A DNA stretch of 64,000 nt from an uncultured Clostridia bacterium. Lineage in GTDB: Bacteria; Bacillota; Limnochordia; Darwinibacteriales; DTU012. The stretch is from the NCBI GenBank assembly GCA_900019385.1, contig FIZJ01000007.1:2796-66795 (forward strand), in the 5' to 3' direction. Below are positions 7,069 through 50,488 of the stretch, piece by piece (position 1 is the stretch's first letter; each line of letters begins with the position of its first letter). Made by a program: the position numbers and the translations under genes. The notes beneath the pieces are model-generated. The model ran no database searches and had not been told where the DNA came from. It worked only from the letters and a program-made list of their open reading frames with translations.

Positions 7069-7092
7069 CGTATACCCTCCAATACCAGTGTT

Positions 7093-8322: not shown

Positions 8323-8462
8323 GTGCCCGCCCTTCCTTACCTTTCGGTTATATTCTAAACGATCCTGGAACCGGGATCAATGCGGCCGTGGAAAAAGTGC
8401 AGGGGAAAGGCGCCTTCGAGTAGAATAGACAAACAGGAACAAACCATGAGAGGGGAGACGCT

Positions 8463-9767: not shown

Positions 9768-9780
9768 AACCAGACAACAA

Positions 9781-9825
9781 GGCCAACTTCAAGCCCTGTG
9801 GACTTGCAAGTTGGCCTTTCTTTTT
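9781..9825. terminator. Bidirectional rho-independent terminator between the convergent PL10 and URO-D genes
   Basis: GGCCAACTT-gap-AAGTTGGCC hairpin followed by TTTCTTTTT. It overlaps the stop codon of the minus-strand gene. Confidence 0.6.
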
Positions 9826-10909
9826 ACACCGGCTCTTTCACGGCTTCAAACAGCGCCTCGATATTCGCCGGATCCACATCGGGAAGAATCGCTTCATGGC
9901 TCGGCGAGATAATCAGGCCAGTGGGGAAGATGCGTTTCAACTCCTGCACCTTGTCTTTGACCTGCTTAGGGGTGCCGTTGATCAAGAGCCACTGGGCGTC
10001 CACACCGCCGCAGAAAGAGACTTTGTCGCCGAAATCCCGCTTCAATCTCTCCGGTTCCATGTCTTTGGCCAAGGCCTGAATAGGATGGATGACATCGACG
10101 CCTGCGGCAATCAGATCGGGAATGACGGGATAGATTGATCCACAGGAATGATAAATAACCTTCAACCCGTAACTCTTGGCCTGTTCAATGAATTTCCTGG
10201 TACCCGGCATGACAAATTCCCGTATCGCATCCGGAGAGACCATCAATCCCCGCTGGCTGCCGAAGTCATTGCCGATCAGAATGGCGTCCAGCTTGCCTTT
10301 GGTGGCGCTGTAGAAGATCTCGTTGGCTTCAAGGTAGAACTGGGTGATGCGGTCGATTACAGCCCGGAACATTTCCGGCTCGGTCAGCATCTTCACCAGA
10401 GCGGTTTCCATGCCGAAGGCCGAACAGGCGTCTTGAAAGTGCGCCGACCACAAAACGCCCATGATTGGGTGGCCTGGCGGCGCGGCCTCCACCGCTCGGC
10501 GGCATCGGTCCGGATCAATATGTTTCGCCGGATCGGGCCAGTCGAAGTCATCAACGCGGCTGGGATCGGAATAGTCTTCAAAGAAGCCGGGCGCAGTCAG
10601 AGTCCTTTGATCGGGTGTGTTAGCCTTTTTGGCAAACTGAAGGGCGGTGTAAATCGCCTTGCTGTCGGGGGCGTCATAGGGGATCTCCACCGGATAGATG
10701 TCGTCCCCGATCTTTAGTTTCAGCTCGTCGATATCGCCGACGTCGAAATAGGCAAAGAGCCGTTCGCAGGCTTCCGGCACAGGCAGGCCAAGCCAAGACG
10801 CGGGCCTGTCCACCGGCCTTCTTTCCACTGTGGCGAAAAAACGTTCCTTAGGATCCATGGCATTCTTCCTTTCTCGCAGCAAATACCGGTCACTGAATTG
10901 ATTCACCAT
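9824..10909 (-). CDS. Uroporphyrinogen decarboxylase (URO-D)/MtaA-like family methyltransferase
   Basis: 361-aa ORF. N-terminal KERFFATVERRPVDRP and the HSCG motif (IYHSCGSIYPVIPDLIAAGVDVIHP) are characteristic of URO-D/MtaA/CmuA-family proteins. Confidence 0.72.
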   Translation of the reverse strand: MVNQFSDRYLLRERKNAMDPKERFFATVERRPVDRPASWLGLPVPEACERLFAYFDVGDIDELKLKIGDDIYPVEIPYDAPDSKAIYTALQFAKKANTPDQRTLTAPGFFEDYSDPSRVDDFDWPDPAKHIDPDRCRRAVEAAPPGHPIMGVLWSAHFQDACSAFGMETALVKMLTEPEMFRAVIDRITQFYLEANEIFYSATKGKLDAILIGNDFGSQRGLMVSPDAIREFVMPGTRKFIEQAKSYGLKVIYHSCGSIYPVIPDLIAAGVDVIHPIQALAKDMEPERLKRDFGDKVSFCGGVDAQWLLINGTPKQVKDKVQELKRIFPTGLIISPSHEAILPDVDPANIEALFEAVKEPV

Positions 10910-11015: not shown

Positions 11016-13226
11016 ATGATGATCGAGATGGTAAAAGTGGAAGCTGGTTCCTTTAAAATGGGCGGAGGCGATCTGAAAGACAGGCCCGACGCGCTCCCGG
11101 TGCATACGGTCACCATCACCAGGGATTTCTGGATCGCCAGGGAACCGATCAAATACGAACTCTTCGCCAGGTTTTGCCGCGAAGAGCTGGGAACTGAACC
11201 CGACGCCGAAAACTTATTGGGATATGTGGTCGGGATCAGCTGGCACGACGCAGACCGGTTCTGCGCCTGGCTCAGCGCCAAGACAGGACTGCCTTACCGC
11301 CTGCCTACCGAGGCGGAATGGGAGTACTGCGCCAGAAACAGCCGGCGCTTCGGGATTGACCGGATGTGTGACATGAATATCAGAGAATGGTGTTTTGACT
11401 GGTATGACGCATATAGTCCCGAAGAGCAGGCCGATCCGGCAGGTCCTGATTCAGGCATGTTCAAGGTTGTCCGGGGCGGCTTCCTGGACAACCCGGCCAA
11501 GTTCAACGCCTACTATTTGGATGTCTGGGCCAGGGGGTCGCTGCCGCCGCATTACCGGCATTTCCCGGGAGACCCCAACGATTTCGGCCGGCACAATGTG
11601 GGCTTTAGGGTTGTGCAGGCAGAGCCGGTGCAGACCAACGGGAAAAACGTTGTCATACCCCTGTCCCTCCATGTCCGGCAGCACCGTCCCCGGACTGAGA
11701 TCACTACCGAAAAGCCCTACTTTAGAAAGCGCCGTTTGTTTCCAATCCCGCCGGATACGGCCAGTCCCGAGGCTGTCAGGGCTTTTGGGCTAAATCCGCT
11801 TCTGCGCCACCACAACCATTCACCTGGGTTCGATGTGGCGCCGAATGGCGATTTGATTGTCTCAATCTATTCGTCCTACCACGAGTATGATCCGGAAGTG
11901 GGGCTGATGGGCGCAAGGCTGCGATATGGCGCCGATGAGTGGGAAATGCCGGATATCTGGCTGAACGCTGTGGGGGTCAACGACCACGCCCCTTTGCTTT
12001 TTACCGACCGCGACGGCACAATCTATCATTTCTGGGGATGGCCCCAATTAGACAATGCCTTTCCGTTTCAGTTCGTCTACTCCAAAGACAGCGGTGCCAC
12101 CTGGAGCCCGGTCCAGTTCCCGAAGTTCGCGGATCGGGCGGAGAAAGTGGCCAGCCAGCCTATCAATACGGTGGTCCATGCCGAAGACGGCTGGTACTAT
12201 GTGCCCTGCGATGTCCAGGGCGAGTCTGCCTCGATTTTGTGGCGCTCCATAGATTTGATCAACTGGGAGGTGCCGCGGGGCAAGACTGCGGGAAGGCACA
12301 GCGCTGTGGTGGAGCTCAAGGACGGCCGGCTGCTGGCGATAGGCGGCAAAAACACCAGCATCTACGGATACATGCCGCAGGCCATCTCCACCGATAAAGG
12401 CGACAGTTGGACAGTGAGCAAGACGCCGTTTCCGGCCATGAGCTCAGGCCAGCGCCCCTGTGTGATCCGGCTGCAGAGCGGAAGACTACTTTACTGCGGT
12501 GATTTTCAGAATAAGCAGGGTAACAGGCCGCCGGGCGCCGCCGAGGATCAATGGGGTTCGTTCGTCGCCTACTCGGAAGATGAAGGCGCGACCTGGAAGA
12601 TCAAAAAGCTGTGGGGCACTCAGCACAAGAAACAGGATCCGGCTCAATTGGGCGGAGCCCATACGCTGGGCTACAGCGTATGCCGGCAGTCGCCGGACGG
12701 GCTGATCCATGTCATCACCTCCAACAACCGGCCCTGCCTGCATCTTTGCTTCAACGAAGCGTGGCTCCTGGCCGACACCGACGGCATATGCCCGAGTGAC
12801 GAGGAACTGATGCGCGAGGACACGGTGGAAATCTCCAATGTCACAACTTATCAGGAGCGCTACGCCGACGGCGGCGTCAAATGTGTCTATTCCGGCGGCA
12901 CTGCTCCCGACGGGCGCTTCCTGCTCCACGGAGAAGAAAAATGGTATTATCCGTCGGGTGAATTGATGACTGAGGCGCGGTACCAGTTCGGCAGGCGCGT
13001 AGGCGCTTACACCCACTACAGCCCGGAAGGCCGCAAGATTTGGGAGTGGGAATACCTGGATGATCATGTTTCCCTCTACAAAACTTACTACACAAATGGC
13101 GGGCTCAGGACGGTAGGGCGTTACCGAAACCGAATCGCCGAAGGGTGGGCGGAACGATATGAGCCCGATGGGAAGCTGGCGGCCCGGGCTCTGTTTGAAA
13201 ACGGGGAGATCGTCAAGGTTGAATAG
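11016..13226 (+). CDS. Multidomain protein: FGE-sulfatase (SUMF1-type) domain + BNR/sialidase-like beta-propeller + MORN-like repeats
   Basis: 736-aa ORF. N-terminal ~200 aa carry formylglycine-generating-enzyme-family motifs (WCFDWY, RVVRGGFL, NVGFRVV). The middle has Asp-box/BNR repeats (SKDSGATW, SEDEGATW). The C-terminus has YwqK/MORN-type repeats. No signal peptide. Confidence 0.6.
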   Translation: MMIEMVKVEAGSFKMGGGDLKDRPDALPVHTVTITRDFWIAREPIKYELFARFCREELGTEPDAENLLGYVVGISWHDADRFCAWLSAKTGLPYRLPTEAEWEYCARNSRRFGIDRMCDMNIREWCFDWYDAYSPEEQADPAGPDSGMFKVVRGGFLDNPAKFNAYYLDVWARGSLPPHYRHFPGDPNDFGRHNVGFRVVQAEPVQTNGKNVVIPLSLHVRQHRPRTEITTEKPYFRKRRLFPIPPDTASPEAVRAFGLNPLLRHHNHSPGFDVAPNGDLIVSIYSSYHEYDPEVGLMGARLRYGADEWEMPDIWLNAVGVNDHAPLLFTDRDGTIYHFWGWPQLDNAFPFQFVYSKDSGATWSPVQFPKFADRAEKVASQPINTVVHAEDGWYYVPCDVQGESASILWRSIDLINWEVPRGKTAGRHSAVVELKDGRLLAIGGKNTSIYGYMPQAISTDKGDSWTVSKTPFPAMSSGQRPCVIRLQSGRLLYCGDFQNKQGNRPPGAAEDQWGSFVAYSEDEGATWKIKKLWGTQHKKQDPAQLGGAHTLGYSVCRQSPDGLIHVITSNNRPCLHLCFNEAWLLADTDGICPSDEELMREDTVEISNVTTYQERYADGGVKCVYSGGTAPDGRFLLHGEEKWYYPSGELMTEARYQFGRRVGAYTHYSPEGRKIWEWEYLDDHVSLYKTYYTNGGLRTVGRYRNRIAEGWAERYEPDGKLAARALFENGEIVKVE

Positions 13227-13350: not shown

Positions 13351-14751
13351 ATGAAAAATGGTGTGATATTCGGCAACAGAAGCTTCTTTGCGGATGAGCT
13401 GTGTCTGGACGGGAGGAGGCGGCTGCTTGGAGTGCTGCAAGAGGCGGGTGTCACTCCTGTAATCCTGCCGGAAGACGTGGGAGCCTACGGGAGTGTGCAA
13501 AACCGGGAACAGGCCTTGAAGTGCGCCGCTTTGTTCAAGGAACACGATGATCTTAAGGGAGTGATCATATCCCTGCCCAACTTCGGCGATGAGAAATCCA
13601 TCGTCACCGTCCTTCGGGAAGCGAAAATCGATGTGCCGATTTTGGTCCATGCCTTCAACGACCACCTCGACAGACTCAACTATGAAAACCGCCGCGACAG
13701 TTTCTGCGGCAAAATCTCTGTCTGCAACAATCTGCGCCAATATGGGTTCAAGTTTACCCTGACCACCCTGCATACAGTAGATCCGGAAAGCCCTGTTTTC
13801 AAGCAGGACCTGCAGCGTTTTCTAGCTGTCTGCCGTGTTGTGGGCACGCTTAAGGGCGCTCGGATCGGGCTGGTGGGTGTAAGGCCCGCGGATTTCAACA
13901 CCGTCCGCTTCAGCGAAAAGATCCTGGAACACCACGGCATTTCTGTGGAACCAATCGGCCTGATTGATGTGATCGGCAAGATCGATGAGCTTGGCGACGC
14001 CGAAGCCCAACCGGCTGTGGAAGAAATCAAGGGTTACATGTCCACCGACAGTGTGCCGGAGGATGCCCTGGCGAAGATGGCCAAGCTTTTGGTTGTGCTG
14101 CGGGAGTGGGTCAGGGGCAATGATCTGCACGCAGTGGCCATCCAGTGCTGGGATTCGCTCCAGCGCTATCTGGGGATCAACTCCTGCGCTGTCATGAGCA
14201 TGCTTTCCCAAGCCGGTGTTCCGGCCGCTTGCGAAAGCGACGTCGCCGGCGCCGTCAGCATGCTGGCGCTGCAGGCGGCAAGCGGTATGCCCAGCGCTCT
14301 TGTCGACTGGAACAACAACTATGCCGATGATCCTGACCGTTTCGTCCTGTTCCACTGCGGCAACTTCGCCAAGGAGTTCTACGATTGCGCTTCCTGCCGG
14401 CCGGTGATCGATTACCCGCCGATTCTGGCCTCGACCCTGGGGCAGGAAAACACCTACGGTGCCATCGACGGCAGAATGAAGCCCGGCAAGGCAACCTTCG
14501 CCAGGATCACCACCGATGATCTCACTGGCACGATCCGGGCCTACTGTGCAGAAGGGCAGGTCACCGATGATTCTCTGGCCACTTTTGGTTCTTGGGGCGT
14601 GGTCAAGGTCCCGGGGCTGCAGAAACTGATGCGCTATATCTGTGAAAATGGGTTTGAACACCATGTGGCGATGAGTTTGGCCAGTGTGGCCGATGTCTTG
14701 GCGGAGGCATTGGGCAAGTACCTCGGCTGGGATGTCTATCATCACGCTTAG
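13351..14751 (+). CDS. L-fucose/L-arabinose isomerase-family sugar isomerase (FucI-like, about 470 aa type)
   Basis: 466-aa ORF with a GGAGG ribosome-binding site. It resembles the short FucI-like isomerase family. Its substrate cannot be assigned from sequence. Confidence 0.5.
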   Translation: MKNGVIFGNRSFFADELCLDGRRRLLGVLQEAGVTPVILPEDVGAYGSVQNREQALKCAALFKEHDDLKGVIISLPNFGDEKSIVTVLREAKIDVPILVHAFNDHLDRLNYENRRDSFCGKISVCNNLRQYGFKFTLTTLHTVDPESPVFKQDLQRFLAVCRVVGTLKGARIGLVGVRPADFNTVRFSEKILEHHGISVEPIGLIDVIGKIDELGDAEAQPAVEEIKGYMSTDSVPEDALAKMAKLLVVLREWVRGNDLHAVAIQCWDSLQRYLGINSCAVMSMLSQAGVPAACESDVAGAVSMLALQAASGMPSALVDWNNNYADDPDRFVLFHCGNFAKEFYDCASCRPVIDYPPILASTLGQENTYGAIDGRMKPGKATFARITTDDLTGTIRAYCAEGQVTDDSLATFGSWGVVKVPGLQKLMRYICENGFEHHVAMSLASVADVLAEALGKYLGWDVYHHA

Positions 14752-14765
14752 GCGGAGGGATTGGT

Positions 14766-18260: not shown

Positions 18261-18270
18261 AGGAGTGGGT

Positions 18271-18618: not shown

Positions 18619-18628
18619 GGTGCGTTTG

Positions 18629-23381: not shown

Positions 23382-24497
23382 ATGCAGTATGCCATGAAGT
23401 ATGTCGAGGACTGGGAGGCTGTCAAAGCCCGCTTTGCGGCCTGGTGGCAGGGAAAGAATCCCGGCCGGCCGCTGATGAGAATTGTCGCCAGGCGGGAACA
23501 GCCCCTTGAAGAGCTGGAGCCCGCTTGGAAAGCGAAGACATTTGTGGACAAACATCTGGAAGTGGAGCGGAAAGTGGTCAACATGCGGAACTACTGCCGC
23601 ACCCGCCGGTTTTTCGCCGAAGCGTTCCCTTCCTTGGATTTGAATATAGGCGCCGGATCGTTCGCCGTTTATCTGGGGCTGGAACCCATTTTTGATCAGA
23701 ACACGGTCTGGTTCCCGGAATGCATCGACGACTGGGACAGCTGGGGAGAATTCCGGTTTGATCCGGACAATCACTGGTGGCAGCGGCATTATCAGGCGAT
23801 CCGGCAGGCGGTGGAGCTCGCTCAAGGGGATTTTCTAGTCAACATCCCTGATATCATCGAAAACCTGGATATTCTCGCCGCCATGCGGGGGGCTCAAAAC
23901 CTCTGCTTAGATTTGATCGACCAGCCGGATGTGATCAAGGCCCGGCTGGAGCAGCTTGACGCTCTGTATTTCCAGTACTATGACCGCTTTTATGATTTGG
24001 TCAAGACTGAGGACGGCGGCAGCAGCTACACGACTTTCAGTATTTGGGGCCCGGGACGGACGGCCAAGATTCAGTGTGATTTTTCCGCCATGATCTCCCC
24101 GGCCCATTTCCGGGAATTTGTCCTGCCGTCCCTCAGGAAACAGTGCCTCAGCCTTGACTGCTCCCTTTACCACCTGGACGGGCCCGACGCAGTCAAGCAC
24201 GTGCCGGCTTTGATGGAAATCGAGGAACTGAACGCTCTGCAGTGGACACCCGGGGCAGGGCAGCCTGACGGAGGCAGCCCTCAATGGTTCCCGATTTATG
24301 ACCAGGTGATCGCCGCCGGCAAGTCATTGTGGATTATGTTCTCCGGGAAGCAGGGCAAATTCGATGATTGGACCGAGGCGGCGGACCGGATAGTGGAGCG
24401 CTACGGCCCGGAGAAACTATACTTCATCTTTCCGGAGATGTCGGAAAAAGAAGCGGAAGCCTTGATGGCGAAAGCAGAACGGGATTGGGCGAGGTAG
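23382..24497 (+). CDS. Divergent URO-D/MtaA-like family protein
   Basis: GGGAGGGA ribosome-binding site. Local similarity to the 9824-10909 protein (CDFSAMISPAHFREFVLPSLRK vs NDFGSQRGLMVSPDAIREFVMPGTRK). The HxxG region is replaced by LYHLDGPDAV. Confidence 0.4.
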   Translation: MQYAMKYVEDWEAVKARFAAWWQGKNPGRPLMRIVARREQPLEELEPAWKAKTFVDKHLEVERKVVNMRNYCRTRRFFAEAFPSLDLNIGAGSFAVYLGLEPIFDQNTVWFPECIDDWDSWGEFRFDPDNHWWQRHYQAIRQAVELAQGDFLVNIPDIIENLDILAAMRGAQNLCLDLIDQPDVIKARLEQLDALYFQYYDRFYDLVKTEDGGSSYTTFSIWGPGRTAKIQCDFSAMISPAHFREFVLPSLRKQCLSLDCSLYHLDGPDAVKHVPALMEIEELNALQWTPGAGQPDGGSPQWFPIYDQVIAAGKSLWIMFSGKQGKFDDWTEAADRIVERYGPEKLYFIFPEMSEKEAEALMAKAERDWAR

Positions 24498-24502
24498 AGG
24501 GT

Positions 24503-25822
24503 ATGAGCCTGAGTCTGATCGGTTTGATCGCTGACGACCTGACCGGTGCTATGGATGCGGGGATGCAGCTTCTCTCCAGGAGACTGGCGATCCACACCGC
24601 CTTGACGGTGGATGATGTGGAAGCTGTGATGGCTGGGGCGGATGTGGTTGTGGCCAACACTCAAAGCCGCAACATCGATCCCCACGCGGCATACAGGCAG
24701 GTTAGAACGGCACTGGACAAACTGGCAGCAGGCGGGTGCCGGGCTTGGTACAAGAAGATCGACTCGACCTTGAGAGGGAATATTGGTGCCGAGCTTAAGG
24801 CTGTCTTGGACAGCGGCGTCTTCGATTTGGTGATCACGGCGCCGGCTCTGCCTTACAATAAAAGGACGACCATCAATGGAATCCACTATGTGGACGGAGT
24901 GGAACTTGCCGAGATCGAACTGGCCAAGGATCCTTTCGCGCCCATTGCCTATTCGGAGATCGGGAGCATCATCAAGACTCAGTTTGAGGGGGAAGTCGGG
25001 CATTTGCCCCTGGACACTGTGCGCCGGGGGAGCGGGGCGCTTGCCGCGAAGGCGAAGGAGTATCTTGCTGCCGGAATCAAAGTGCTGACCGCCGACGCTG
25101 AAACAGAGCGGGATCTCAGGCAGATCGCCTCCGCCGCCGGTGTTTTGCCGTGCAGAGTTCTGTTGTGCGGTTCTGCGGGATTGTTTAGGTATCTTGATGA
25201 GGCTTACAGCCTCGCAAATCCGAGAGGAGAGGGCGAAAAGCCTAAAGTGGACAGGGAGCCTTATGCCCCGCCGGAAGGCGCGCCCGTGCTGGTCCTGTCG
25301 GGAAGCCCCGCCCAGATGTCCAAGCGGCAGATCCAGTATCTAGAGGACAGGCGGCCGGATACGGTTGTTGTCGCTGCTGACATCGCCGCCGTGCCCGAAG
25401 GGGAAGCGGCCGCCAAAACGATGGAGGTGATCAGTACGGTTATCGGCCACCTGCGGGCGGGTAAAAATGTGGCCCTGGACGCTGCCGGAACAAGCAAGGA
25501 AGCGATTCTCAGTCAGACGCGGGGCATGCGGGAGCAGCTTGACCGCTTTAGCTCGACAGTGCAGACACTGCTGCGGGACGCAGCCGCCGCTGCAGCAGCC
25601 CAAGTGCCTCTTGCTGCCTTGGTCCTTTTCGGCGGAGACACAGCAGTTGCGGTGCTGAAGCAGTTGGGGGGCCAGGGCATAGCCATCGTCAAAGAAATGG
25701 AGCCCTACATACCCTTAGGCAGATTGATCGGGGGAGCTTATGCCGGGCTGCTGGTTGTGACCAAAGCGGGCGGGTTCGGCAGTGAAGATTCTCTGCTTCG
25801 GATACTGGAAACGAGGGGATGA
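24503..25822 (+). CDS. Four-carbon acid sugar kinase family (DUF1537/DUF2090; OtnK/OiaK-like)
   Basis: N-terminal IADDLTGAMD motif typical of DUF1537 kinases. About 440 aa. Immediately upstream of a PdxA-family gene. Confidence 0.75.
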   Translation: MSLSLIGLIADDLTGAMDAGMQLLSRRLAIHTALTVDDVEAVMAGADVVVANTQSRNIDPHAAYRQVRTALDKLAAGGCRAWYKKIDSTLRGNIGAELKAVLDSGVFDLVITAPALPYNKRTTINGIHYVDGVELAEIELAKDPFAPIAYSEIGSIIKTQFEGEVGHLPLDTVRRGSGALAAKAKEYLAAGIKVLTADAETERDLRQIASAAGVLPCRVLLCGSAGLFRYLDEAYSLANPRGEGEKPKVDREPYAPPEGAPVLVLSGSPAQMSKRQIQYLEDRRPDTVVVAADIAAVPEGEAAAKTMEVISTVIGHLRAGKNVALDAAGTSKEAILSQTRGMREQLDRFSSTVQTLLRDAAAAAAAQVPLAALVLFGGDTAVAVLKQLGGQGIAIVKEMEPYIPLGRLIGGAYAGLLVVTKAGGFGSEDSLLRILETRG

Positions 25823-25829
25823 CAGCGCG

Positions 25830-26891
25830 ATGAACGAGCAATCCGTGATGGCAAAACTGATGGAGCAGGCAGCAGCCAAAGGCAGGCCGATTGTAGCTGT
25901 CTCCACCGGGGATCCTTCCGGAATCGGGCCGGAGATCTCAGTATCGGCCTTGCGGCATGAGGAGGTTTACCGAATCTGCCGCCCGTTTCTTATCGGCGAT
26001 TCAGCGGCTTTTTCCTCTTTGGATCTAAAGGGGTGGAGGCTCAATCCGGTCGAGCAGATCGGCGATATGCAGTTCCGCTTTGGAACTATCGATCTTTTAA
26101 ATATGAACCTGCTTCCAAGCGCGCCGCCGTTGGGTGTGGTCAACGCGGAATCAGGCAATGCATCGTTTCACTATGTGAAAAAAGCCATCGATCTGGCCAT
26201 GGCCAACGAGGTGGACGCCACGGTCACTGGACCGATCAGCAAAGAAGCGATCAACTTGGCTGGGCACCATTTCTCGGGGCATACAGAGATCTACGCCCAT
26301 TACACCAACAGCGAAGACTATGCCATGGTCTTGGCCCATGAGCATTTTCGGGTGATCCATGTTTCCACCCATGTGTCGCTGCGCCGGGCCTGCGATTTGG
26401 TGAAGAAAGGCCGGGTGCTGAAGGTGATTCAAATCGCAGACCAGGCCTGCCGCCGGCTGGGTATTGCCAAGCCCAGGATCGCGGTTGCAGGTCTGAATCC
26501 CCATGCAGGGGAAAATGGGCTGTTCGGGACTGAGGAGATCACAGAGATCATGCCGGCGATTGCCGAAGCCAGGGAACTGGGCATTGATGTGGATGGGCCG
26601 ATCCCTCCAGACACGGTTTTCCCGAAGCTGAACGGCAGACTGTACGACATCTGCGTCTGCATGTATCATGACCAGGGGCATATTCCCACCAAACTGCTGG
26701 GTTTCACTTGGGACCCTGCCCAAGGCAAGTGGCTTTCGGTGAGCGGTGTCAACATCACCATGGGCCTGCCGATCATCCGGGTCTCGGTCGACCACGGCAC
26801 AGCCTATGACATCGCCGGCAAGGGTGTGGCTTCTGACAGTTCGATGGTTAATGCCATTGCCTATGCTGTTCAGTTGGCCTTAAATCGATGA
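25830..26891 (+). CDS. PdxA-family NAD-dependent dehydrogenase (PdxA2-type; 4-phospho-acid-sugar dehydrogenase or oxidoisomerase)
   Basis: VSTGDPSGIGPEI, HAGENG and HDQGHIP motifs. Classic pairing with a DUF1537 kinase. Confidence 0.8.
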   Translation: MNEQSVMAKLMEQAAAKGRPIVAVSTGDPSGIGPEISVSALRHEEVYRICRPFLIGDSAAFSSLDLKGWRLNPVEQIGDMQFRFGTIDLLNMNLLPSAPPLGVVNAESGNASFHYVKKAIDLAMANEVDATVTGPISKEAINLAGHHFSGHTEIYAHYTNSEDYAMVLAHEHFRVIHVSTHVSLRRACDLVKKGRVLKVIQIADQACRRLGIAKPRIAVAGLNPHAGENGLFGTEEITEIMPAIAEARELGIDVDGPIPPDTVFPKLNGRLYDICVCMYHDQGHIPTKLLGFTWDPAQGKWLSVSGVNITMGLPIIRVSVDHGTAYDIAGKGVASDSSMVNAIAYAVQLALNR

Positions 26892-26908
26892 AGTTGGGAG
26901 ATGGTGGC

Positions 26909-27799
26909 ATGAAATTGTGCCGGGGTATCACAGCGGCGGTTGTGACTCCGTTCACCAAGAGTGAAGCAGTAAACTACAAGGAACTTCGCAGGCATGTACA
27001 GAGGATTATTGAGGCAGGGGTGCACGGGATCTTCTGCCTGGGGACGAACGGCGAGTTCTACGCCTTAAGCGAAAGAGAGAAATACCGCGTGGTGGAGACA
27101 GTGGTGGACGAAGTTAGCGGAAAGGTCCCGGTCTATGCCGGCTCGGGGGAGATCGCCACCCGGACCGTAATCAGGTTGACCAAGCGGTTCAAAAAGCTGG
27201 GTGCTGACGCTGTTTCCATTGTAACACCCTATTTTATCCACCCCACCCAGCACGAGCTGTACCATCACTACGGAAGAATCGCCGTGGAAACAGAGTTCCC
27301 TATCATTCTCTATAACATTCCCATGCGGACCAATGTCAAGTTGGAGCCGGAAACAGTGGCCAGATTGGCCGCTGGGTTTGAGAACATTATCGGAATCAAG
27401 GACTCGAGCGGCGATCTCAAGCTCACCCAGGCGTATATCGAGCAGACACCGGAACGCTTCGCTGTTATGGGAGGCAACGACGGTTTGATCCTCGATACAC
27501 TGCTTTTGGGCGGGACGGGAGCGATCGCCGCCACCGCCAACGTGATTCCGGAAATCCTGGTCAACATTTACCAGGCTTTTATGGAAGGGGATCTGGACAA
27601 AGCCAGGATGTGGCAGGACAGGGTGGCGCCGCTTAGGAAAGACTTCGCCCTGGGAACGTCCCCAGGGGTGATCAAAGTCCAGGCGAACCAGCGCGGATAT
27701 CCCGTAGGCCCCAGCCGGATGCCGATATTGTACGATGATCCGGAAGTGGTGGCCTTGATTGGAGAGAATTTGCGCCAGAATTACGGATTGGCAGACTGA
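26909..27799 (+). CDS. DapA/N-acetylneuraminate-lyase (DHDPS) family class I aldolase
   Basis: AAVVTPF, GTNGE and YNIP motifs. About 297 aa. Translationally coupled to PdxA2. Confidence 0.75.
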   Translation: MKLCRGITAAVVTPFTKSEAVNYKELRRHVQRIIEAGVHGIFCLGTNGEFYALSEREKYRVVETVVDEVSGKVPVYAGSGEIATRTVIRLTKRFKKLGADAVSIVTPYFIHPTQHELYHHYGRIAVETEFPIILYNIPMRTNVKLEPETVARLAAGFENIIGIKDSSGDLKLTQAYIEQTPERFAVMGGNDGLILDTLLLGGTGAIAATANVIPEILVNIYQAFMEGDLDKARMWQDRVAPLRKDFALGTSPGVIKVQANQRGYPVGPSRMPILYDDPEVVALIGENLRQNYGLAD

Positions 27800-45749: not shown

Positions 45750-47774
45750 ATGAAGTACGGCGTTTCGTATTATCCGGAACACAAGGATCAGGCTGAAATC
45801 GGCCATGATATCGCCCTGATGAAAGAGTTGGGCGTCAATCTGGCGCGGATGGGCGAGTTCGCCTGGTGCAAGTTTGAACCCCGGGAAGGGGAGTATGACT
45901 TTGCCTGGCTTGACCCAGTGATCGAACAGCTGGGGGAGAACGGGATCCAGACCATTGTCTGCACTCCGACTGCCTGCCCTCCGGCTTGGCTTGTGGAAAA
46001 GCACCCGGAGATCCTTTATGTGGACAACCGGGGAGTGGCCAGGCCCTTTGGCGGCAGGCGGCATTATTGTTACAACAACCCGGTCTATCGAGAGTACTCC
46101 CGCAGGATTGCCGAGGCGGTGGCCGCCCACTATGGGGACAACCCCTACGTTTACGCCTTCCAGATTGACAATGAACTGGCTCAGGAGGGGACAGGCCGGT
46201 GCCGCTGCCCGGTGTGCCGGGAGAAATTCCAGAGATGGCTTGAGGCCAAGTATGGGACGATAACCGAGCTAAACAGGAGAATGGGCACAATCTTCTGGGG
46301 CCAGGTTTATGATCATTTCGGCCAGATCCATCCCCCGGTGAACACTATTGAACCTAACACCGCACAGGCCATCCCCGCTTACTTTGAGAACCCGTCGCTG
46401 CGCCTGGATTTCGAGCGTTTCTGCAGCGAGTCCAATATTGAGTATCAAAACATCCAAAGAGATGCGATCAAAGCATACACCGACAAGCCGACAACCACCA
46501 ACGCCACAGGTTTGGCCACCAACAGCATCGATTATTACAGAGCCTTTCAGAATCTGGATGTGTACGCTTTCGACTATTACCCCAACCTGCGAGAGGGCAT
46601 GATCAGTTCCTTCCCGTATGCCCATGCGCGAGGGGTTTGCAATAAGGACTTCTGGCTGCTGGAGTTCGTTTCCGGCGGCGGCCACGGACTCTGGGGTTCA
46701 GGCAGGCTGCAGCCGTACCCCGGCGCCCTGCGCCAGGCGGCCGTCCATGCCTTCGCCGCCGGAGCGGATTTGGTGGCGCATTTTCAGTTTAGGACCTTCC
46801 CGTTTGGGGCGGAACAGCTGAACTATGCCATCGTGGATATCGACGGGATCCCCAGGCGCCGGTTCTACGAAATGCAGGCCGCCGCCAAGGATCTGAGGCA
46901 GCTTGGCTTGACACTGAAGAATTCCTACTTTGAGAACGAAGTTGCCGTCTTGTTCGATTATGATTCACTGTGGGCGCTGAAGATCAAGCCCATCGCCAAG
47001 GATTTCGACTACGCGCATTTCTGCGGCGAGTTCTACCACCAGCTGACCAGGCTGGGTGTGGGAGTCGATGTGATCTCGTTCGATCACGATCTGGACAAAT
47101 ACAAGGTTGTGATCGTCCCAGCCCCCATGATTATGAGCGAAGCGTTCAAGCGGCGTTTGAAACAATACGTCTACAACGGAGGCGTTTTATTATCCACGTT
47201 TCTTGCGGGGGTGAAAAACCTGGACAATCTGGGGATCACCGAGTCCCTGCCTTGTGGGCTTACTGATCTGTTCGGGATCAGAGTCGGGGAAGTGGAACCG
47301 GTGGTGGAGAGCACAGCCGCCGCTGTCACCCTGGACACCGGCACCGGCTGTGCCCGGGGTATGAACAGGTACTGGGCGGAAACCCTCGAACCAAACGGGG
47401 CGGAGCTGATCGGCACATACACCGGCAACTTCCGGGAAGGTATCGGTGTTATCAGCAAAAACAGCTACGGCAAGGGCACAGCATATTACCTGGGCACAGG
47501 CCTGGAGCCGGATCTTCTGAAAACCCTCTTGAAGAGGGTTGTGGAGGAAGGCGGGGTTGCCGGGCTGCCGTTCGCGGTCCCAGAGGGTGTGGAAGTGCTT
47601 GTGCGGAAGTACAACCACCAAAATTTGTACTGCATCTTCAATTTCTGCAAAGAACCAGCGGCAGTGGAGCTTGAGCGAGCCTACCACGATGTCCTGCGGG
47701 GCGCTGCTGTCGATGGGCTGGCGGAACTGCCGCCGAAAGGGTATCTGTTCTTATTGGAGGAGGGATGGGATTGA
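45750..47774 (+). CDS. GH42 beta-galactosidase (YesZ/BgaB-like)
   Basis: YGVSYYPEH start. Cys cluster GRCRCPVCREK (GH42 Zn site). IDNE acid/base region. AGAGGGGA ribosome-binding site. Confidence 0.85.
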   Translation: MKYGVSYYPEHKDQAEIGHDIALMKELGVNLARMGEFAWCKFEPREGEYDFAWLDPVIEQLGENGIQTIVCTPTACPPAWLVEKHPEILYVDNRGVARPFGGRRHYCYNNPVYREYSRRIAEAVAAHYGDNPYVYAFQIDNELAQEGTGRCRCPVCREKFQRWLEAKYGTITELNRRMGTIFWGQVYDHFGQIHPPVNTIEPNTAQAIPAYFENPSLRLDFERFCSESNIEYQNIQRDAIKAYTDKPTTTNATGLATNSIDYYRAFQNLDVYAFDYYPNLREGMISSFPYAHARGVCNKDFWLLEFVSGGGHGLWGSGRLQPYPGALRQAAVHAFAAGADLVAHFQFRTFPFGAEQLNYAIVDIDGIPRRRFYEMQAAAKDLRQLGLTLKNSYFENEVAVLFDYDSLWALKIKPIAKDFDYAHFCGEFYHQLTRLGVGVDVISFDHDLDKYKVVIVPAPMIMSEAFKRRLKQYVYNGGVLLSTFLAGVKNLDNLGITESLPCGLTDLFGIRVGEVEPVVESTAAAVTLDTGTGCARGMNRYWAETLEPNGAELIGTYTGNFREGIGVISKNSYGKGTAYYLGTGLEPDLLKTLLKRVVEEGGVAGLPFAVPEGVEVLVRKYNHQNLYCIFNFCKEPAAVELERAYHDVLRGAAVDGLAELPPKGYLFLLEEGWD

Positions 47775-50488
47775 TGAAGCAAGCACTGATCCTGACTGGT
47801 GGGGAAGTTGGCAGAAGGATTGAGTTCGGCATCAGCCTGCTTGAGCAGGGACTGGCACAGGCGGGTTATGATGTGAGGCGGGAAACTCTCATCGATCAGT
47901 TCCACAGCTACCGCGGTTTCGACGGCGACAAGATTTACGTTGGCTGCAGAGGCCGGGATCCGTTCATCGCATGGCTCGAAGAACAGGAAGTGCTGCTTTA
48001 CCACGGCCCGGAGCCGGGCAAGGAAGGCTTCTACTTGGAATCCTGCCCAGGGCGGCTCACCGTGGTGGTTGGGGGAGATGATACCGGCACTGTTTACGGC
48101 TGCCGGGAACTGGCAGGCCGCATCGCCCGTGAAGGGTCGCTCCCCACGAACCTGGCCTTCTATGACGCGCCCGCGTTCAAACTGCGGGGACCCTGCCTGG
48201 GGCTGCAGAAAACTAAGATCGAGCCGCCGCGGCTGACGTATGAATACCCGATCACCCCGGATCGGTTCCCCTGGTTCTACGACAAAGAGCTGTGGCGTGT
48301 GTTCCTGGACCGTATGGTGGATTACCGCTGCAACGTGCTCTATTTGTGGAGCGGCCATCCTTTTTCTTCACTGGTCAAGCTCGAAGAGTACCCCGAAGCG
48401 CTGGAAGTCTCGGAAGAGGAGTACGAGCTCAACCGCGCCATGTTCCGCTGGCTGACGGAGGAATGCGACCGCCGGGGGATTTGGGTTGTGCTCAAATTCT
48501 ACAATATCCACATTCCGTACCCCTTTGCCGTAAAGCACGGCCTGGAACAGCGCCAGGCAAGGATTCACCCTTTGGTGGCCGATTACACCGCCAAATCGAT
48601 TGTTGAATTCATCAAATCTTTTCCCAACATTGGACTCATGGTTTGCCTGGGTGAAGCCCTCCGCGGTTACGACAACAAGACCGAATGGTTCGTCAAGACG
48701 ATCATCCCGGCGGTCAAGGAGGGCATGCGGCAAGCTGGGATTGGGGAAGAGCCGCCGATCATCCTCCGGGCTCACGACTGCGATCCTTTCGCTGCGATCG
48801 CAGGGGCCGAAGAGCTTTATTCCAACCTGTACACCATGTGGAAGTACAACGGCGAAAGCCTGACCACCTATTACCCCAGAGGCAGCTGGCAGAGGCAGCA
48901 CAAAGCATTGAGCGGGATGAAGTCGACGCACATCATCAATGTGCATGTTCTGGCCAATCTGGAGCCTTTCCGCTACAACGCCGTGAATTTTATTCAAAAA
49001 AGCATGCAGGCCGCCAAGTACCGACTGGGCGGCAACGGACTGCATTTGTACCCCCTCTTCTATTGGGACTGGCCTTACGCTCCGGACAAGGCTGAACCGA
49101 GAATGCTGCAGCTGGACCGGGACTGGATGTGGTACGAAGCCTGGTTCCGCTATGCCTGGAACCCGGAACGGGATGAAAAGGATGAGTCCCTGTATTGGAC
49201 GAAACGAGTGGGAGAGCATTACCAGATCGACAGCCAAGCCGCCGGACTCCTGGTGGAGGCGATGAACAGCGCCGGGCAGATCGCCCCGAAGATCCTGGGC
49301 AGGATCGGCATCACCGAAGGCAACCGCCAGACGTTCAGCCTGGGTATGACCTTAAGTCAGATCACCAATGTCAACCGCTATGGCCCCAACCGGGAGCTGT
49401 GGCATTCGGTGGCCAGAGCCGGAGAACAGCCCGATGACTACATCACGAAAGAACTGGCAGGCCGGCCCCATGTCGGTGAGACACCTTATGATATGATAGA
49501 AGAAGTGAAGGCCGACGCCGAGGCGGCTTTAAGCAAGTGCGAACAGGCTTTTGGCCTTATTAACGAACCCTGCTTGGAGCTCCGCCGCATCAAGAGCGAT
49601 ATTGAGGCGCTGTACCATCTGACCCGGTTTTATTGTTTCAAACTGGAAGCAGGTATGGAAGTCTTGAAGTACAAGTATACAATGGATGAACAGTTTAGGG
49701 GCGATTTTTCCCTCCTGGACAAAGCCGAAGGGCTGCTGGCCCAGAGCCTTGAGGCCTACAAAAAGCTTACGGCAATCACCGAGCGGACTTATCTTTATGC
49801 CAACAGCCTCCAGACCAGGCACCGCAAAATTCCGTTCCCCGACGGTGAGTTGTATGACCATTGGCGCCAGTGCCTGCCGGAATATGAACGGGAGTATGAG
49901 AACTTCCGCCGCAATATCGCCAGGCTCAAAGCAGGCGATCTGCCCCAGTTCGAGGCTGGTGCCCAATCATCCCTACCGGAAGCCCCGTTCAAGCTGTTGG
50001 GCAGCGACTGCGAGCTGTACAAGGTGGTGAAAGGGGAGAAACTCTTCACAGACGGGGATCAGATTATCTATGATGTGATTAAGCCCTTGGAAGGCCTCAC
50101 AGGCATCCGCATGGCCCATGCCCATGCCCGGAGCGCAGGGTGCAGCATCAAGATCGAACTGCCTGAGGACAGCCAGATTCTGATTGGGTATATCAAAGAA
50201 AGAGATCCAAAATGGCTGCAGGCGCCTGAATTGGAGACCAATGCCCACGCCGACGACCGGGGTGGTGTGAAAGTACGGTTCAAGAACGCAATCAACGCCA
50301 GCAGCTGCCCACCCATTGACATTCACGCTCTCCAGTATGAAAAGGGAGTCCACGAACTATACTTCGGCACAGGCAGCTATCTGGTCGTGGGAGTGATCCC
50401 CAAAGCCGCGAACCTCGACGCTTATGCCGGAAAGCACAAATACGACGGGCCGGAAACCCTCGATTGGCTGTACTACAGTCTAGACTAA
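47774..50488 (+). CDS. Large glycoside-hydrolase-like protein, family unassigned (architecture reminiscent of GH67/GH89/GH115: N-terminal alpha/beta domain + TIM barrel + helical C-terminus)
   Basis: About 904-aa ORF with a GGAGGAGGG ribosome-binding site. No signal peptide. Trp-rich. Located in the CAZyme operon. Confidence 0.35.
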   Translation: MKQALILTGGEVGRRIEFGISLLEQGLAQAGYDVRRETLIDQFHSYRGFDGDKIYVGCRGRDPFIAWLEEQEVLLYHGPEPGKEGFYLESCPGRLTVVVGGDDTGTVYGCRELAGRIAREGSLPTNLAFYDAPAFKLRGPCLGLQKTKIEPPRLTYEYPITPDRFPWFYDKELWRVFLDRMVDYRCNVLYLWSGHPFSSLVKLEEYPEALEVSEEEYELNRAMFRWLTEECDRRGIWVVLKFYNIHIPYPFAVKHGLEQRQARIHPLVADYTAKSIVEFIKSFPNIGLMVCLGEALRGYDNKTEWFVKTIIPAVKEGMRQAGIGEEPPIILRAHDCDPFAAIAGAEELYSNLYTMWKYNGESLTTYYPRGSWQRQHKALSGMKSTHIINVHVLANLEPFRYNAVNFIQKSMQAAKYRLGGNGLHLYPLFYWDWPYAPDKAEPRMLQLDRDWMWYEAWFRYAWNPERDEKDESLYWTKRVGEHYQIDSQAAGLLVEAMNSAGQIAPKILGRIGITEGNRQTFSLGMTLSQITNVNRYGPNRELWHSVARAGEQPDDYITKELAGRPHVGETPYDMIEEVKADAEAALSKCEQAFGLINEPCLELRRIKSDIEALYHLTRFYCFKLEAGMEVLKYKYTMDEQFRGDFSLLDKAEGLLAQSLEAYKKLTAITERTYLYANSLQTRHRKIPFPDGELYDHWRQCLPEYEREYENFRRNIARLKAGDLPQFEAGAQSSLPEAPFKLLGSDCELYKVVKGEKLFTDGDQIIYDVIKPLEGLTGIRMAHAHARSAGCSIKIELPEDSQILIGYIKERDPKWLQAPELETNAHADDRGGVKVRFKNAINASSCPPIDIHALQYEKGVHELYFGTGSYLVVGVIPKAANLDAYAGKHKYDGPETLDWLYYSLD

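What the first reader, a model, noticed from the sequence alone, without database searches (positions are those of the whole stretch)
11016..13226. Unusual fusion: FGE-sulfatase (SUMF1-type) domain + BNR sialidase-fold propeller + MORN/YwqK repeats
The 736-aa product combines a formylglycine-generating-enzyme-family domain with an Asp-box beta-propeller and C-terminal MORN-like repeats. In FGEs this domain uses a Cu/O2-dependent active site to make Cα-formylglycine. In EgtB and OvoA homologues it catalyses sulfoxide synthesis. It has no signal peptide. The gene has its own promoter region and is divergently arranged relative to a URO-D methyltransferase gene. FGE-domain proteins without an accompanying sulfatase are often not true FGEs. 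Fused to a glycosidase-like propeller, the domain could be a carbohydrate-binding or oxidative accessory module.
Basis: seen in the sequence. Interest (0 to 1): 0.6.

Follow-up and report, generated by a model that had tools for sequence, protein, structure and literature searches.

The report
Pectin side-chain enzyme, inactive FGE domain
This gene encodes a common but uncharacterised three-domain protein: its 'sulfatase-maturing' FGE domain has lost the catalytic cysteines, and its sialidase-like propeller most likely removes a rare acidic sugar (Kdo or Dha) from fragments of the plant pectin rhamnogalacturonan-II inside the cell.

Summary
ORF 11016-13226 (+) encodes 736 aa with an FGE-sulfatase domain, a six-bladed BNR/sialidase-fold propeller and a MORN_2 tail, and it has no signal peptide.

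It is neither unusual nor a chimera. The same architecture fills the top database hits across several phyla, and the propeller family has 278 clusters (50% identity) at E<=1e-30.

The FGE domain is not an FGE. Both catalytic cysteines are replaced (D158, F163), and none of 220 FGE-bearing relatives keeps the pair. No DinB domain and no sulfatase gene are present.

The propeller is closest in fold to GH33 sialidases and KDNases. It keeps an invariant Tyr in a GYS motif and basic residues at sialidase-like positions, but its invariant core is His-rich and non-canonical.

The surroundings are a rhamnogalacturonan-II locus of a Limnochordia-type Bacillota bacterium, with GH138, GH143, GH106-like, PL1 and PL10. 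Across relatives the gene recurs beside a DHDPS-type aldolase, PdxA-like and C4 acid-sugar kinase genes, Fe-ADH and GH143.

Best reading (about 0.5): a cytoplasmic ulosonic-acid (Kdo or Dha) glycosidase with non-catalytic FGE and MORN modules. It is a new variant of a known kind and of moderate interest.

The parts
11016..13226 (+). Whole gene, 736 aa, FGE-like + propeller + MORN-like. The JGI gene call starts one codon later, at 11019 (735 aa).
   Evidence: (P0001 100% identical)
11025..11624 (+). FGE-sulfatase-fold domain (aa 4-203), judged catalytically dead as an FGE. The positions of the two FGE cysteines are D158 and F163.
   Evidence: Pfam PF03781 E=8.7e-23. Alignment to T. curvata FGE, 'GGsFLCHESYCNRYR' vs 'GG-FLDNPAKFNAYY'. 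0 of 220 relatives keep the Cys pair.
11625..11804 (+). Conserved linker (aa 204-263) with the motif PYFRKR. Strand 236-240 of the model is placed as the closing strand of blade 6 (my reading of the DSSP string).
   Evidence: Invariant K238, R239, P245, G258; DSSP of the model
11805..12785 (+). Six-bladed sialidase-fold beta-propeller (aa 264-590) with four Asp-box-like motifs (one canonical, aa 356-363). Proposed active site: R264, H266, H268, D279, E290, R301, D399, H428, K445, Q479, R480, R485, Y553, Q558, H565, N580.
   Evidence: Pfam BNR_2; AF2 pLDDT 92.8 / pTM 0.93; Foldseek top hits all GH33 sialidases/KDNases; conservation over 234 sequences
12813..13223 (+). C-terminal MORN_2/YwqK-like beta-hairpin repeat domain (aa 600-736)
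   Evidence: Pfam PF07661 34.8 bits vs 29.6 cut-off; all-beta hairpins at pLDDT above 95; present in 70 of 150 representatives
9824..10909 (-). Divergent URO-D/MtaA-like gene. A URO-D-family gene is the immediate upstream neighbour of the family in five loci.
13351..14751 (+). FucI-like sugar isomerase directly downstream; the same neighbour is seen in L094, L095 and L097.
24368..27799 (+). DUF1537-type C4 acid-sugar kinase, PdxA-like dehydrogenase and DHDPS-family aldolase (longest-ORF coordinates). This module recurs beside the family.
   Evidence: contexts
47765..50488 (+). GH138-type protein (RG-II chain-A alpha-galacturonidase family), a marker of an RG-II locus
   Evidence: PDB 6hze/6hzf BPa0997, E=9e-203. 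The GH138 assignment of that entry is from my own knowledge; BT0997=GH138 is stated in PMC13501991.
52780..56704 (+). GH143-type propeller (BT1020 N-terminal homologue) followed by an MGH1-like (alpha/alpha)6 glycoside hydrolase. Both lack signal peptides.
   Evidence: Pfam PF24067 E=1e-95; PDB 5mqr E=5.6e-137; orthology of the MGH1-like gene to those beside the family elsewhere

Best explanation
The protein is a cytoplasmic glycosidase of a rhamnogalacturonan-II (RG-II) utilisation system in a Limnochordia-type Bacillota bacterium. Secreted pectate lyases (PL1, PL10) cut the backbone, and ABC transporters import side-chain-bearing oligosaccharides. This enzyme then uses its sialidase-fold propeller to release a 2-keto-3-deoxy acid sugar from backbone galacturonic acid: Kdo from chain C or Dha from chain D. 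The proposed chemistry is sialidase-like. The sugar's carboxylate is held by basic residues (R480, K445, and R264 in the close clade). Y553, in a GYS motif, acts as nucleophile and is activated by H428, which sits where GH33 enzymes have a Glu. E290 or D292 acts as acid/base. The freed sugar is split by the co-encoded DHDPS-family aldolase into pyruvate plus an aldehyde. For Dha that aldehyde would be a C4 uronate semialdehyde, taken to DHAP by Fe-ADH, a DtnK-like kinase and a PdxA2-like dehydrogenase. For Kdo it would be D-arabinose, a plausible substrate of the FucI-like isomerase encoded directly downstream. The FGE-like and MORN-like domains are non-catalytic and pack rigidly on the propeller, probably shaping or extending the substrate site. 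Shown: the domain content, the loss of FGE residues, the fold, the conservation pattern, and the RG-II and aldolase-module context. Inferred: hydrolase activity, the residue roles, the substrate, and every catabolic step.
For: Fold: the AF2 model has pLDDT 92.8 and pTM 0.93. Almost all of the 50 best Foldseek PDB matches are GH33 sialidases, KDNases or a pseudaminidase; the exceptions are a redesigned sialidase scaffold (4j9t), an unknown-function protein (5hx0) and two propeller lectins. TM to the Micromonospora catalytic domain is about 0.70. Profile searches also hit sialidases: C. perfringens NanH at E=5.6e-6 and 1e-4. Active site: over 234 diverse sequences Y553 and H428 are invariant apart from one sequence each, D279 and R301 are invariant in all 234, R480 is 99%, E290 is 98%, and K445 is K/R in 214 of 234. 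The HMM alignment to NanH puts H428 on the catalytic Glu and K445/N446 on the second Arg. RG-II locus: GH143, GH138, GH106-like, PL10, PL1, GH29, GH31, GH42, GH2. Relatives sit with GH140, GH127 and GH78, in a SusC/D PUL with GH140 and pectinesterase, with GH95, and with GH141 and PL11. Ulosonic-acid module: the kinase, PdxA and DHDPS genes lie near the gene in window, L002, L085, L086, L089 and L091, and DHDPS is the commonest neighbour, in 16 of 41 metagenome loci of at least 12 kb. GH143 shares the locus in at least 11 cases and the operon in L092. Kinase and PdxA most resemble the D-threonate pair. GH33 is known to include Kdo hydrolase (PMC9120202); in B. thetaiotaomicron Kdo and Dha are released by BT1013-C and BT1020-N (PMC13501991). 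Localisation: no signal peptide here or on GH143 and MGH1-like, whereas PL1, PL10 and the solute-binding proteins have one.
Against: There is no biochemical evidence for any member. The site is not canonical GH33: the catalytic Glu position is His, the second Arg is Lys, and the first Arg (R264) is kept in only 131 of 234 sequences. hhalign against verified Salmonella NanH aligns only an Asp-box, at probability 7%. The many invariant histidines (H266, H268, H428, H565, H576) would also suit a metal centre and a different chemistry. Kdo versus Dha is unresolved, and co-occurrence with GH143 means the protein is not simply 'the' Dha hydrolase. In PVC-type loci the neighbours are giant PATR proteins and PL11, with no aldolase module. 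The ~30%-identity clade has sulfatase neighbours, and one Bacteroidota-type locus has a housekeeping context. Locus counts include near-duplicate contigs from related samples, so they are not independent.
Confidence: 0.5

Rival explanations
1. It is an RG-II or pectin-active enzyme with a different chemistry at the His-rich propeller centre. Candidates are a metal-dependent lyase (PL22-like beta-elimination at a substituted galacturonate) or an intramolecular trans-glycosidase that releases an anhydro-ulosonic acid, which a neighbouring GFO/IDH/MocA oxidoreductase then reopens (the IT-sialidase/NanOx logic).
For: Five histidines are conserved in at least 92% of 234 sequences, including an HxH motif at blade 1 (H266, H268, H428, H565, H576), and the GH33 Glu and first Arg are not kept. 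A GFO/IDH/MocA gene lies directly after the gene in L092 and L096 and directly before GH143 in the window. Co-occurrence with GH143 suggests a function that is not redundant with Dha hydrolysis. The PL22 Mn site and the IT-sialidase/NanOx pathway are recalled from the literature.
Against: The best structural matches are hydrolytic GH33 enzymes, not lyase propellers. The invariant Tyr in a GYS motif is the GH33 nucleophile signature. PL42 lyase matches are limited to an Asp-box. GFO/IDH/MocA genes are common in sugar loci generally.
Confidence: 0.22
2. It is a non-enzymatic carbohydrate-binding or scaffolding protein: a lectin-like FGE fold, a propeller lectin and MORN repeats that bind imported oligosaccharide or organise other enzymes.
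For: FGE-fold domains are often non-catalytic (PvdO, PorK/GldK and the Treponema variable protein appear among hits). Propeller lectins appear in the Foldseek list (PLL, ranks 43 and 47). The GH33 catalytic set is incomplete.
Against: A dense set of invariant Tyr, His, Arg, Asp and Glu residues persists down to about 30% identity, which is typical of catalysis. The gene sits in operons among enzymes of one pathway. There are no signalling or DNA-binding domains.
Confidence: 0.1
3. It is a sialidase or related enzyme for host-type sialylated or sulfated glycans, as the first reader suggested testing.
For: GH33-like fold. NCBI names FGE-less fragments of the same cluster 'exo-alpha-sialidase'. 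The distant clade has sulfatase neighbours.
Against: No nan genes or sulfatases were found among the window ORFs of 200 aa or more that were scanned. The window and most related loci encode pectin and RG-II enzymes. The close relatives come from bioreactor, fermentation and digester-type metagenomes and from Limnochordia MAGs. The protein is cytoplasmic.
Confidence: 0.05
4. It is a true formylglycine-generating or EgtB/OvoA-type oxidative enzyme that acts through the FGE domain.
For: Pfam FGE-sulfatase hit. PGAP names it 'SUMF1/EgtB/PvdO family nonheme iron enzyme'.
Against: Both Cu-binding catalytic cysteines are replaced here and in all 220 relatives. No DinB domain or His triad precedes the FGE fold, which starts at residue 4. 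NCBIfam scores are far below every equivalog cut-off, for example EgtB 24.8 vs 360 bits. No sulfatase gene lies nearby.
Confidence: 0.02

Closest known systems
GH33 sialidases, KDNases and Kdo hydrolase (e.g. Micromonospora viridifaciens sialidase 1EUS, Salmonella NanH 2SIL, Aspergillus KDNase, B. thetaiotaomicron BT1013 C-terminal Kdo hydrolase)
   Same: Six-bladed propeller with Asp-boxes. These are the top structural matches. A Tyr in a GYS motif sits at the start of blade 6, and basic residues sit at the starts of blades 4 and 5. The substrates are 2-keto-3-deoxy acid sugars, and GH33 already includes a Kdo hydrolase from the RG-II system.
   Different: Sequence similarity is limited to the Asp-boxes. 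His replaces the catalytic Glu, Lys replaces the second Arg, and the first Arg is only clade-specific. The core is unusually His-rich. The protein also has an N-terminal FGE-fold domain and a C-terminal MORN-like domain, and it is cytoplasmic.
GH143 DHA-hydrolase (BT1020 N-terminal domain, PDB 5MQR)
   Same: A BNR-type propeller enzyme for the other RG-II ulosonic acid. It is encoded in the same locus or operon as this family in many genomes, and it alternates as the neighbour of the same MGH1-like GH.
   Different: No Pfam PF24067 hit; BLASTP E=0.22; hhalign probability 24%. GH143 carries a C-terminal sialidase-like CBM rather than FGE and MORN domains.
Non-catalytic FGE-fold proteins (PvdO, PorK/GldK, Treponema variable protein 1)
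   Same: FGE-sulfatase fold without the catalytic Cys pair. The best NCBIfam match is PvdO (44 bits), and PDB hits include PvdO, PorK and TDE variable protein.
   Different: None of those is fused to a propeller. All scores are far below family cut-offs, so this is a separate branch of the fold.
Formylglycine-generating enzyme (SUMF1; T. curvata and S. coelicolor FGE)
   Same: Overall fold and the structural motifs LPTEAEWE, EWxxDW, RGG and GFR.
   Different: The two Cu(I)-binding catalytic cysteines are Asp and Phe. There is no sulfatase partner, and the domain is compact at about 200 aa.

Membership tests
Formylglycine-generating enzyme (SUMF1-type FGE) | FGE-sulfatase fold (PF03781) | tested here: met
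   E=8.7e-23, 81.7 bits vs cut-off 23.3; PDB FGEs at E about 5e-20 with the family profile
Formylglycine-generating enzyme (SUMF1-type FGE) | Two catalytic, Cu(I)-binding cysteines after the RGG motif | tested here: not met
   D158 and F163 align to the two Cys of T. curvata FGE. Among 220 relatives position 158 is D/S/G and position 163 is Y/gap/R/F.
Formylglycine-generating enzyme (SUMF1-type FGE) | Sulfatase substrate (CxPxR-type) encoded nearby or in the genome | tested here: inconclusive
   No Sulfatase-family ORF among the window genes annotated. The rest of the genome is not available.
EgtB / OvoA / SenA sulfoxide synthases | N-terminal DinB-like domain with a 3-His iron site preceding the FGE-like domain | tested here: not met
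   The FGE fold starts at residue 4 and there is no DinB hit at E<=0.1. EgtB, OvoA and SenA scores are 24-33 bits against cut-offs of 360-420.
GH33 sialidase / KDNase / Kdo hydrolase | Six-bladed beta-propeller with Asp-box repeats | tested here: met
   BNR_2 over the full model; one canonical and three degenerate Asp-boxes read in the sequence; Foldseek TM about 0.6-0.7 to GH33 catalytic domains
GH33 sialidase / KDNase / Kdo hydrolase | Arginine triad binding the carboxylate | tested here: inconclusive
   R480 (99%) and K445 (K/R in 214 of 234) lie at equivalent strand positions. R264 (RxHxHSP vs RIP) is kept in only 131 of 234. The geometry could not be checked without coordinates.
GH33 sialidase / KDNase / Kdo hydrolase | Tyr nucleophile paired with a Glu | tested here: inconclusive
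   Y553 is present in 233 of 234 sequences in a GYS motif like NanH GAGYS. The Glu position aligns to invariant H428, not Glu.
GH33 sialidase / KDNase / Kdo hydrolase | Detectable sequence homology over the catalytic domain | tested here: not met
   hhalign against verified Salmonella NanH gives probability 7%, Asp-box only. HMM hits to PDB sialidases cover one or two blades.
GH143 (BT1020-type DHA hydrolase) | Match to the BT_1020 propeller (PF24067 / PDB 5MQR) | tested here: not met
   No PF24067 hit, whereas window 52780-54576 scores 1e-95. BLASTP E=0.22; hhalign probability 24%.
MORN_2 / YwqK repeat proteins | MORN variant repeats (PF07661) | tested here: met
   34.8 bits vs 29.6 cut-off; beta-hairpin repeats over aa 607-735 in the model
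RG-II degradation apparatus (functional system) | Co-localisation with RG-II-specific CAZyme families | tested here: met
   GH143 and GH138 in the window. GH140, GH127 and GH78, GH140 with SusC/D, GH95, and GH143 in 8 of 41 metagenome loci.
RG-II degradation apparatus (functional system) | Demonstrated activity on RG-II or its oligosaccharides | not testable with these tools
   Needs enzymology. No paper describing this family was found.

The most novel reading that the evidence does not exclude
The family founds a new carbohydrate-active enzyme family. In this reading a sialidase-fold propeller with a His-rich, possibly metal-assisted, active site is permanently buttressed by a catalytically dead FGE fold and a MORN-like domain. 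It would carry out the Kdo- or Dha-releasing step, or an anhydro-sugar-forming variant coupled to the adjacent GFO/IDH/MocA oxidoreductase, in rhamnogalacturonan-II breakdown by Gram-positive and other non-Bacteroides degraders. Together with the aldolase, Fe-ADH, DtnK-like kinase and PdxA-like genes it would define a so far undescribed catabolic route for Dha.
Probability: 0.3. Interest if true: 0.7.

Novelty: new variant of a known kind. Interest (0 to 1): 0.55.

Why it matters
RG-II is regarded as the most complex plant glycan, and its breakdown is understood enzyme by enzyme only in Bacteroides thetaiotaomicron. How Firmicutes, Planctomycetota, Verrucomicrobiota and others remove and catabolise its two ulosonic acids is not described. 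This family is large: 278 clusters at 50% identity with E<=1e-30, and the window's own 90% cluster was seen on 329 contigs. Public annotation calls it a 'nonheme iron enzyme', which is misleading, and no paper on it was found. If the assignment holds, it gives a testable candidate for a missing RG-II step outside Bacteroides. It also gives a candidate Dha/Kdo catabolic pathway, and a clear case of the FGE fold reused as a structural module of a glycosidase. A practical consequence is that thousands of gene annotations should read 'sialidase-fold glycosidase, FGE-like domain inactive'.

Tried and rejected
1. Chimera or assembly artefact: rejected. The architecture and the linker motif are conserved in hundreds of independent contigs across phyla.
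2. True FGE or EgtB-type chemistry: rejected.
3. 'This is the organism's GH143': rejected. The window has its own GH143, and the two propellers are not detectably similar.
4. 'The MGH1-like neighbour is GH142': not supported. There is no match to the BT1020 C-terminal half, only a weak match to YgjK/GH63.
5. Registering GH33 catalytic residues by sequence failed. phmmer/hmmsearch and hhalign align only Asp-boxes, so the residue mapping in the report is manual and inferred.
7. The genome-contig scan used generic FGE motifs and mostly returned unrelated FGE-domain proteins. Its few full-length hits form a distant MORN-less clade whose neighbourhoods (sulfatases, TPR proteins) are not informative for pectin.
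8. Literature searches for the fusion, for Dha catabolism, for Kdo hydrolase and for BPa0997 found no description of this family. The Ndeh 2017 paper was not held.
9. The promoter and terminator scan and the Rfam scan found nothing relevant.
10. The first MAFFT run timed out and was repeated with faster settings.
Full report
**1. The observation.** ORF 11016..13226 (+) encodes 736 aa. Pfam gives FGE-sulfatase (E=8.7e-23, from aa 4), BNR_2 (E=7.4e-15, aa 278-566 against the whole model) and MORN_2 (E=1.1e-8), all above their gathering scores. The N-terminus runs straight into the FGE fold, so there is no signal peptide. A URO-D-family gene (9824-10909, - strand) lies divergently, 106 bp upstream. 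The description is therefore correct. A sigma-70 consensus scan finds no promoter in the intergenic region, which is uninformative.

**2. Neither a chimera nor unusual.** The protein-database search returned 5013 hits at E<=1e-5. Almost all of the best 120 clusters (43-100% identity) share FGE + BNR_2 (± MORN_2). Source names include Christensenellales, Hungatella, Rikenellaceae, Planctomycetota and Verrucomicrobiae. The window's own 90% cluster is annotated in Limnochordia/Bacillota MAGs and was seen on 329 contigs. The window matches a 79-kb JGI metagenome contig. An exhaustive search with a propeller-only profile finds 2648, 669 and 278 representative clusters at E<=1e-3, 1e-10 and 1e-30. 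The putative junction at 11.6-11.9 kb encodes the conserved linker PYFRKR...RxHxHSP. Of 71 representatives with an intact propeller N-terminus, 53 carry the FGE domain. Several of the others are truncated gene calls, but some are genuine FGE-less propeller+MORN proteins with signal peptides or other N-terminal domains. The propeller is the core, and FGE is a frequent accessory.

**3. The FGE domain.** The alignment to T. curvata FGE places 'GG-FLDNPAKFNAYY' against 'GGsFLCHESYCNRYR', so the two Cu-binding catalytic cysteines are D158 and F163. Among 220 FGE-bearing relatives, position 158 is D (147), S (23) or G (9), and position 163 is Y, a gap, R or F. None keeps the Cys pair, including the ~30%-identity clade, which reads 'RGGSHS'. 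No DinB domain precedes the fold. All NCBIfam scores are far below cut-off: PvdO 44 vs 500, EgtB 25 vs 360. The conserved residues are the general structural motifs of the fold. The domain is an FGE fold but not an FGE, EgtB or OvoA enzyme.

**4. The propeller.** The AlphaFold2 model built on a 62-sequence alignment is very confident (pLDDT 92.8, pTM 0.93). This implies a single rigid three-domain body. Foldseek against the PDB returns GH33 sialidases, KDNases and a pseudaminidase as the great majority of the top 50, with TM normalised to the target of about 0.6-0.7. The remainder are a redesigned sialidase scaffold, an unknown-function protein and two propeller lectins. GH143 (5MQR) is not among the top 50.

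Sequence methods see only the Asp-boxes. Profile hits to C. perfringens NanH reach E=5.6e-6 over two blades. hhalign to Salmonella NanH gives probability 7%; I verified that sequence against PDB 1DIL. Over 234 diverse propellers the near-invariant non-structural residues are H266, H268, D279, E290, R301, D399, H428, Q479, R480, R485, Y553, Q558, H565, H576 and N580. K445 is K/R in 214 of 234, and R264 is Arg in only 131.

The NanH alignment puts H428 on the catalytic Glu and K445/N446 on the second Arg. By strand position in the model (my inference), R264, E290/D292, R480 and Y553 correspond to NanH R37, D62, R309 and Y342, and the GYS motif around the Tyr is identical. The site is sialidase-like in layout but non-canonical and His-rich. 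I could not check the geometry because coordinates are not exposed.

**5. The locus.** Every annotated gene (ORFs of 200 aa or more) from 11016 to 62396 is on the + strand. The window encodes:
- a GH106-like protein, PL10 and PL1, the last two with signal peptides;
- GH31, GH29, GH42, GH2 and a GH43-like protein;
- a GH138 homologue (PDB BPa0997, E=9e-203; the family assignment is from my own knowledge and from BT0997=GH138 in PMC13501991);
- a bona fide GH143 (PF24067 at 1e-95; 5MQR at 5.6e-137), followed by an MGH1-like (alpha/alpha)6 GH;
- ABC importers;
- a DUF1537 kinase, a PdxA-like gene and a DHDPS-family aldolase;
- two split transketolases and a transaldolase.

This is an RG-II utilisation locus of a Gram-positive-type organism: lyases act outside the cell and glycosidases inside it.

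**6. Conserved context of the family.** In Bacillota-type loci the gene sits with the same partners.
- L002: GH78, GH140, PdxA, kinase, DHDPS, [gene], MGH1-like, GH127.
- L085: DHDPS, Fe-ADH, kinase, PdxA, [gene], with GH143 5 kb away.
- L086, L089 and L091: transporter, [gene], MGH1-like, Fe-ADH, DHDPS, PdxA, kinase, GH28, pectinesterase, GH78 and GH106.
- L092: URO-D, [gene], GFO/IDH/MocA, GH143, MGH1-like, GH2. This is syntenic with window 45.7-62.4 kb.

A Bacteroidota PUL has SusC/D, GH140, pectinesterase and then the gene. Other phyla show GH95, GH141 and PL11. The MGH1-like genes beside the family are full-length orthologues (39-62% identity) of the window's, which sits beside GH143. They are not similar to GH142.

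In 41 metagenome loci of at least 12 kb, retrieved with propeller-specific motifs, local BLASTP finds DHDPS in 16, GH143 in 8, PdxA in 6, and Fe-ADH, MGH1-like and transketolase in 5 each. Some of these loci are near-duplicates, so the counts are not independent. A housekeeping dapA would be expected in well under one locus (my estimate).

Exceptions are one housekeeping context, PVC loci with giant PATR proteins, and the distant MORN-less clade with sulfatase neighbours.

**7. Mechanistic reading.** RG-II carries two 2-keto-3-deoxy acid sugars on its backbone, Kdo (chain C) and Dha (chain D). In B. thetaiotaomicron these are released by the BT1013 C-terminal domain and the BT1020 N-terminal GH143 domain (PMC13501991), and GH33 lists Kdo hydrolase (PMC9120202). 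A sialidase-fold enzyme that recurs next to a NanA/DapA-family aldolase and GH143 in RG-II loci is most simply an ulosonic-acid glycosidase.

- **For Kdo.** The gene is co-operonic with GH143, which suggests complementary roles. Its fold is GH33-like rather than GH143-like. A FucI-like isomerase lies directly downstream in four loci, and D-arabinose is the aldolase product of Kdo.
- **For Dha.** The Fe-ADH, DtnK-like kinase and PdxA2-like genes match the chemistry needed for the C4 fragment of Dha. This follows the DUF1537/PdxA2 acid-sugar pathway logic, recalled from the literature. That module sits beside the gene in about nine loci that have no GH143 within 10 kb.

I cannot resolve this choice.

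**8. Verdict.** It is wrong on rarity and on the likely substrates. The best explanation is an RG-II ulosonic-acid glycosidase with dead FGE and MORN accessory domains (about 0.5). The main rival is a different chemistry at the His-rich centre (about 0.2). I found no publication on the family. Public annotation as 'SUMF1/EgtB/PvdO family nonheme iron enzyme' is misleading. The finding is a new variant of a known kind, with interest 0.55.

Noticed in passing
window 6427-10909 (- strand) and 50508-51653 (+): A corrinoid protein (MtgC/MtbC/MtaC-like), a PocR-AraC regulator and a URO-D/MtaA-like gene lie inside an RG-II locus, and there is a second URO-D paralogue. A URO-D gene is the immediate upstream neighbour of the FGE-propeller gene in window, L094 and L095 (divergent) and in L092 and L096 (same strand). 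This could be a corrinoid-dependent methyl-transfer system for RG-II methyl-ether sugars (2-O-Me-Fuc, 2-O-Me-Xyl) or for pectin-derived methanol. No cobalamin riboswitch was found (no Rfam hit in the window).
   Followed up: partly
window 47765-50488 (+): A 907-aa protein has no Pfam hit but is a strong homologue of PDB 6HZE/6HZF BPa0997 (E=9e-203), the GH138 RG-II chain-A alpha-galacturonidase family. It is syntenic in L092 and L096.
   Followed up: partly
window 52780-56704 (+): GH143 (BT1020 N-terminal homologue) and an MGH1-like (alpha/alpha)6 GH are separate adjacent genes, which mirrors the BT1020 GH143-GH142 fusion in layout. The second gene is not sequence-similar to GH142, so it may be an analogous capping-sugar glycosidase of a different family. 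The same orthologue sits next to the FGE-propeller gene in L002, L086, L091, L098 and L100, and one gene away in L089.
   Followed up: partly
window 21451-23367 (+): A 638-aa protein has no significant Pfam or PDB match (only weak GH127-like and C5-epimerase-like hits). Relatives at 25% identity (692-725 aa) sit inside the FGE-propeller/aldolase operons of L086, L089 and L091. It is a candidate for a further unknown RG-II enzyme.
   Followed up: partly
window 13351-21454 (+): FucI-like isomerase, Asp/Glu-racemase-like protein, two split transketolase pairs, a transaldolase, a small cupin (seen in the JGI calls) and a GH43/GH32/GH130-like protein. The racemase-transketolase-transaldolase-cupin block also occurs in L002, L094 and L095. 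It is possibly a pathway for an RG-II pentose or branched sugar (D-arabinose from Kdo, or apiose).
   Followed up: no
window 24368-27799 (+); L085, L086, L089, L091, L130, L164, L165, L170: A conserved module of a DtnK-like DUF1537 kinase, a PdxA-like dehydrogenase and a DHDPS-family aldolase (± Fe-ADH). The aldolase passes NCBI's dapA cut-off (239 vs 206 bits) and would be annotated as lysine-biosynthesis DapA, although its context points to a sugar-acid aldolase.
   Followed up: partly
window 11016-62396: About 51 kb in which every annotated gene (ORFs of 200 aa or more) is on the + strand. Cumulative GC skew rises steadily across the window.
   Followed up: no
window 37181-45639 (+): An NHL/TPR/Yip1-domain membrane protein and a DUF5696 protein (967 aa) are encoded with two ABC permeases and flanked by two solute-binding proteins. 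A similar NHL/TPR gene lies next to an ABC transporter in L085.
   Followed up: no
L005-L015, L034 (genome contigs): A distant clade (27-41% identity, mostly without the MORN tail) occurs in Planctomycetota, Acidobacteriota, Verrucomicrobiota, Poribacteria and an unclassified Proteobacteria MAG. Its neighbourhoods contain sulfatases (4 of 93 ORFs) rather than pectin enzymes, although its FGE domain also lacks the Cys pair. It may have a different substrate.
   Followed up: partly
window 5310-6230 (-): A D12-class DNA methyltransferase gene is embedded between the GH106-like gene and the corrinoid protein gene.
   Followed up: no
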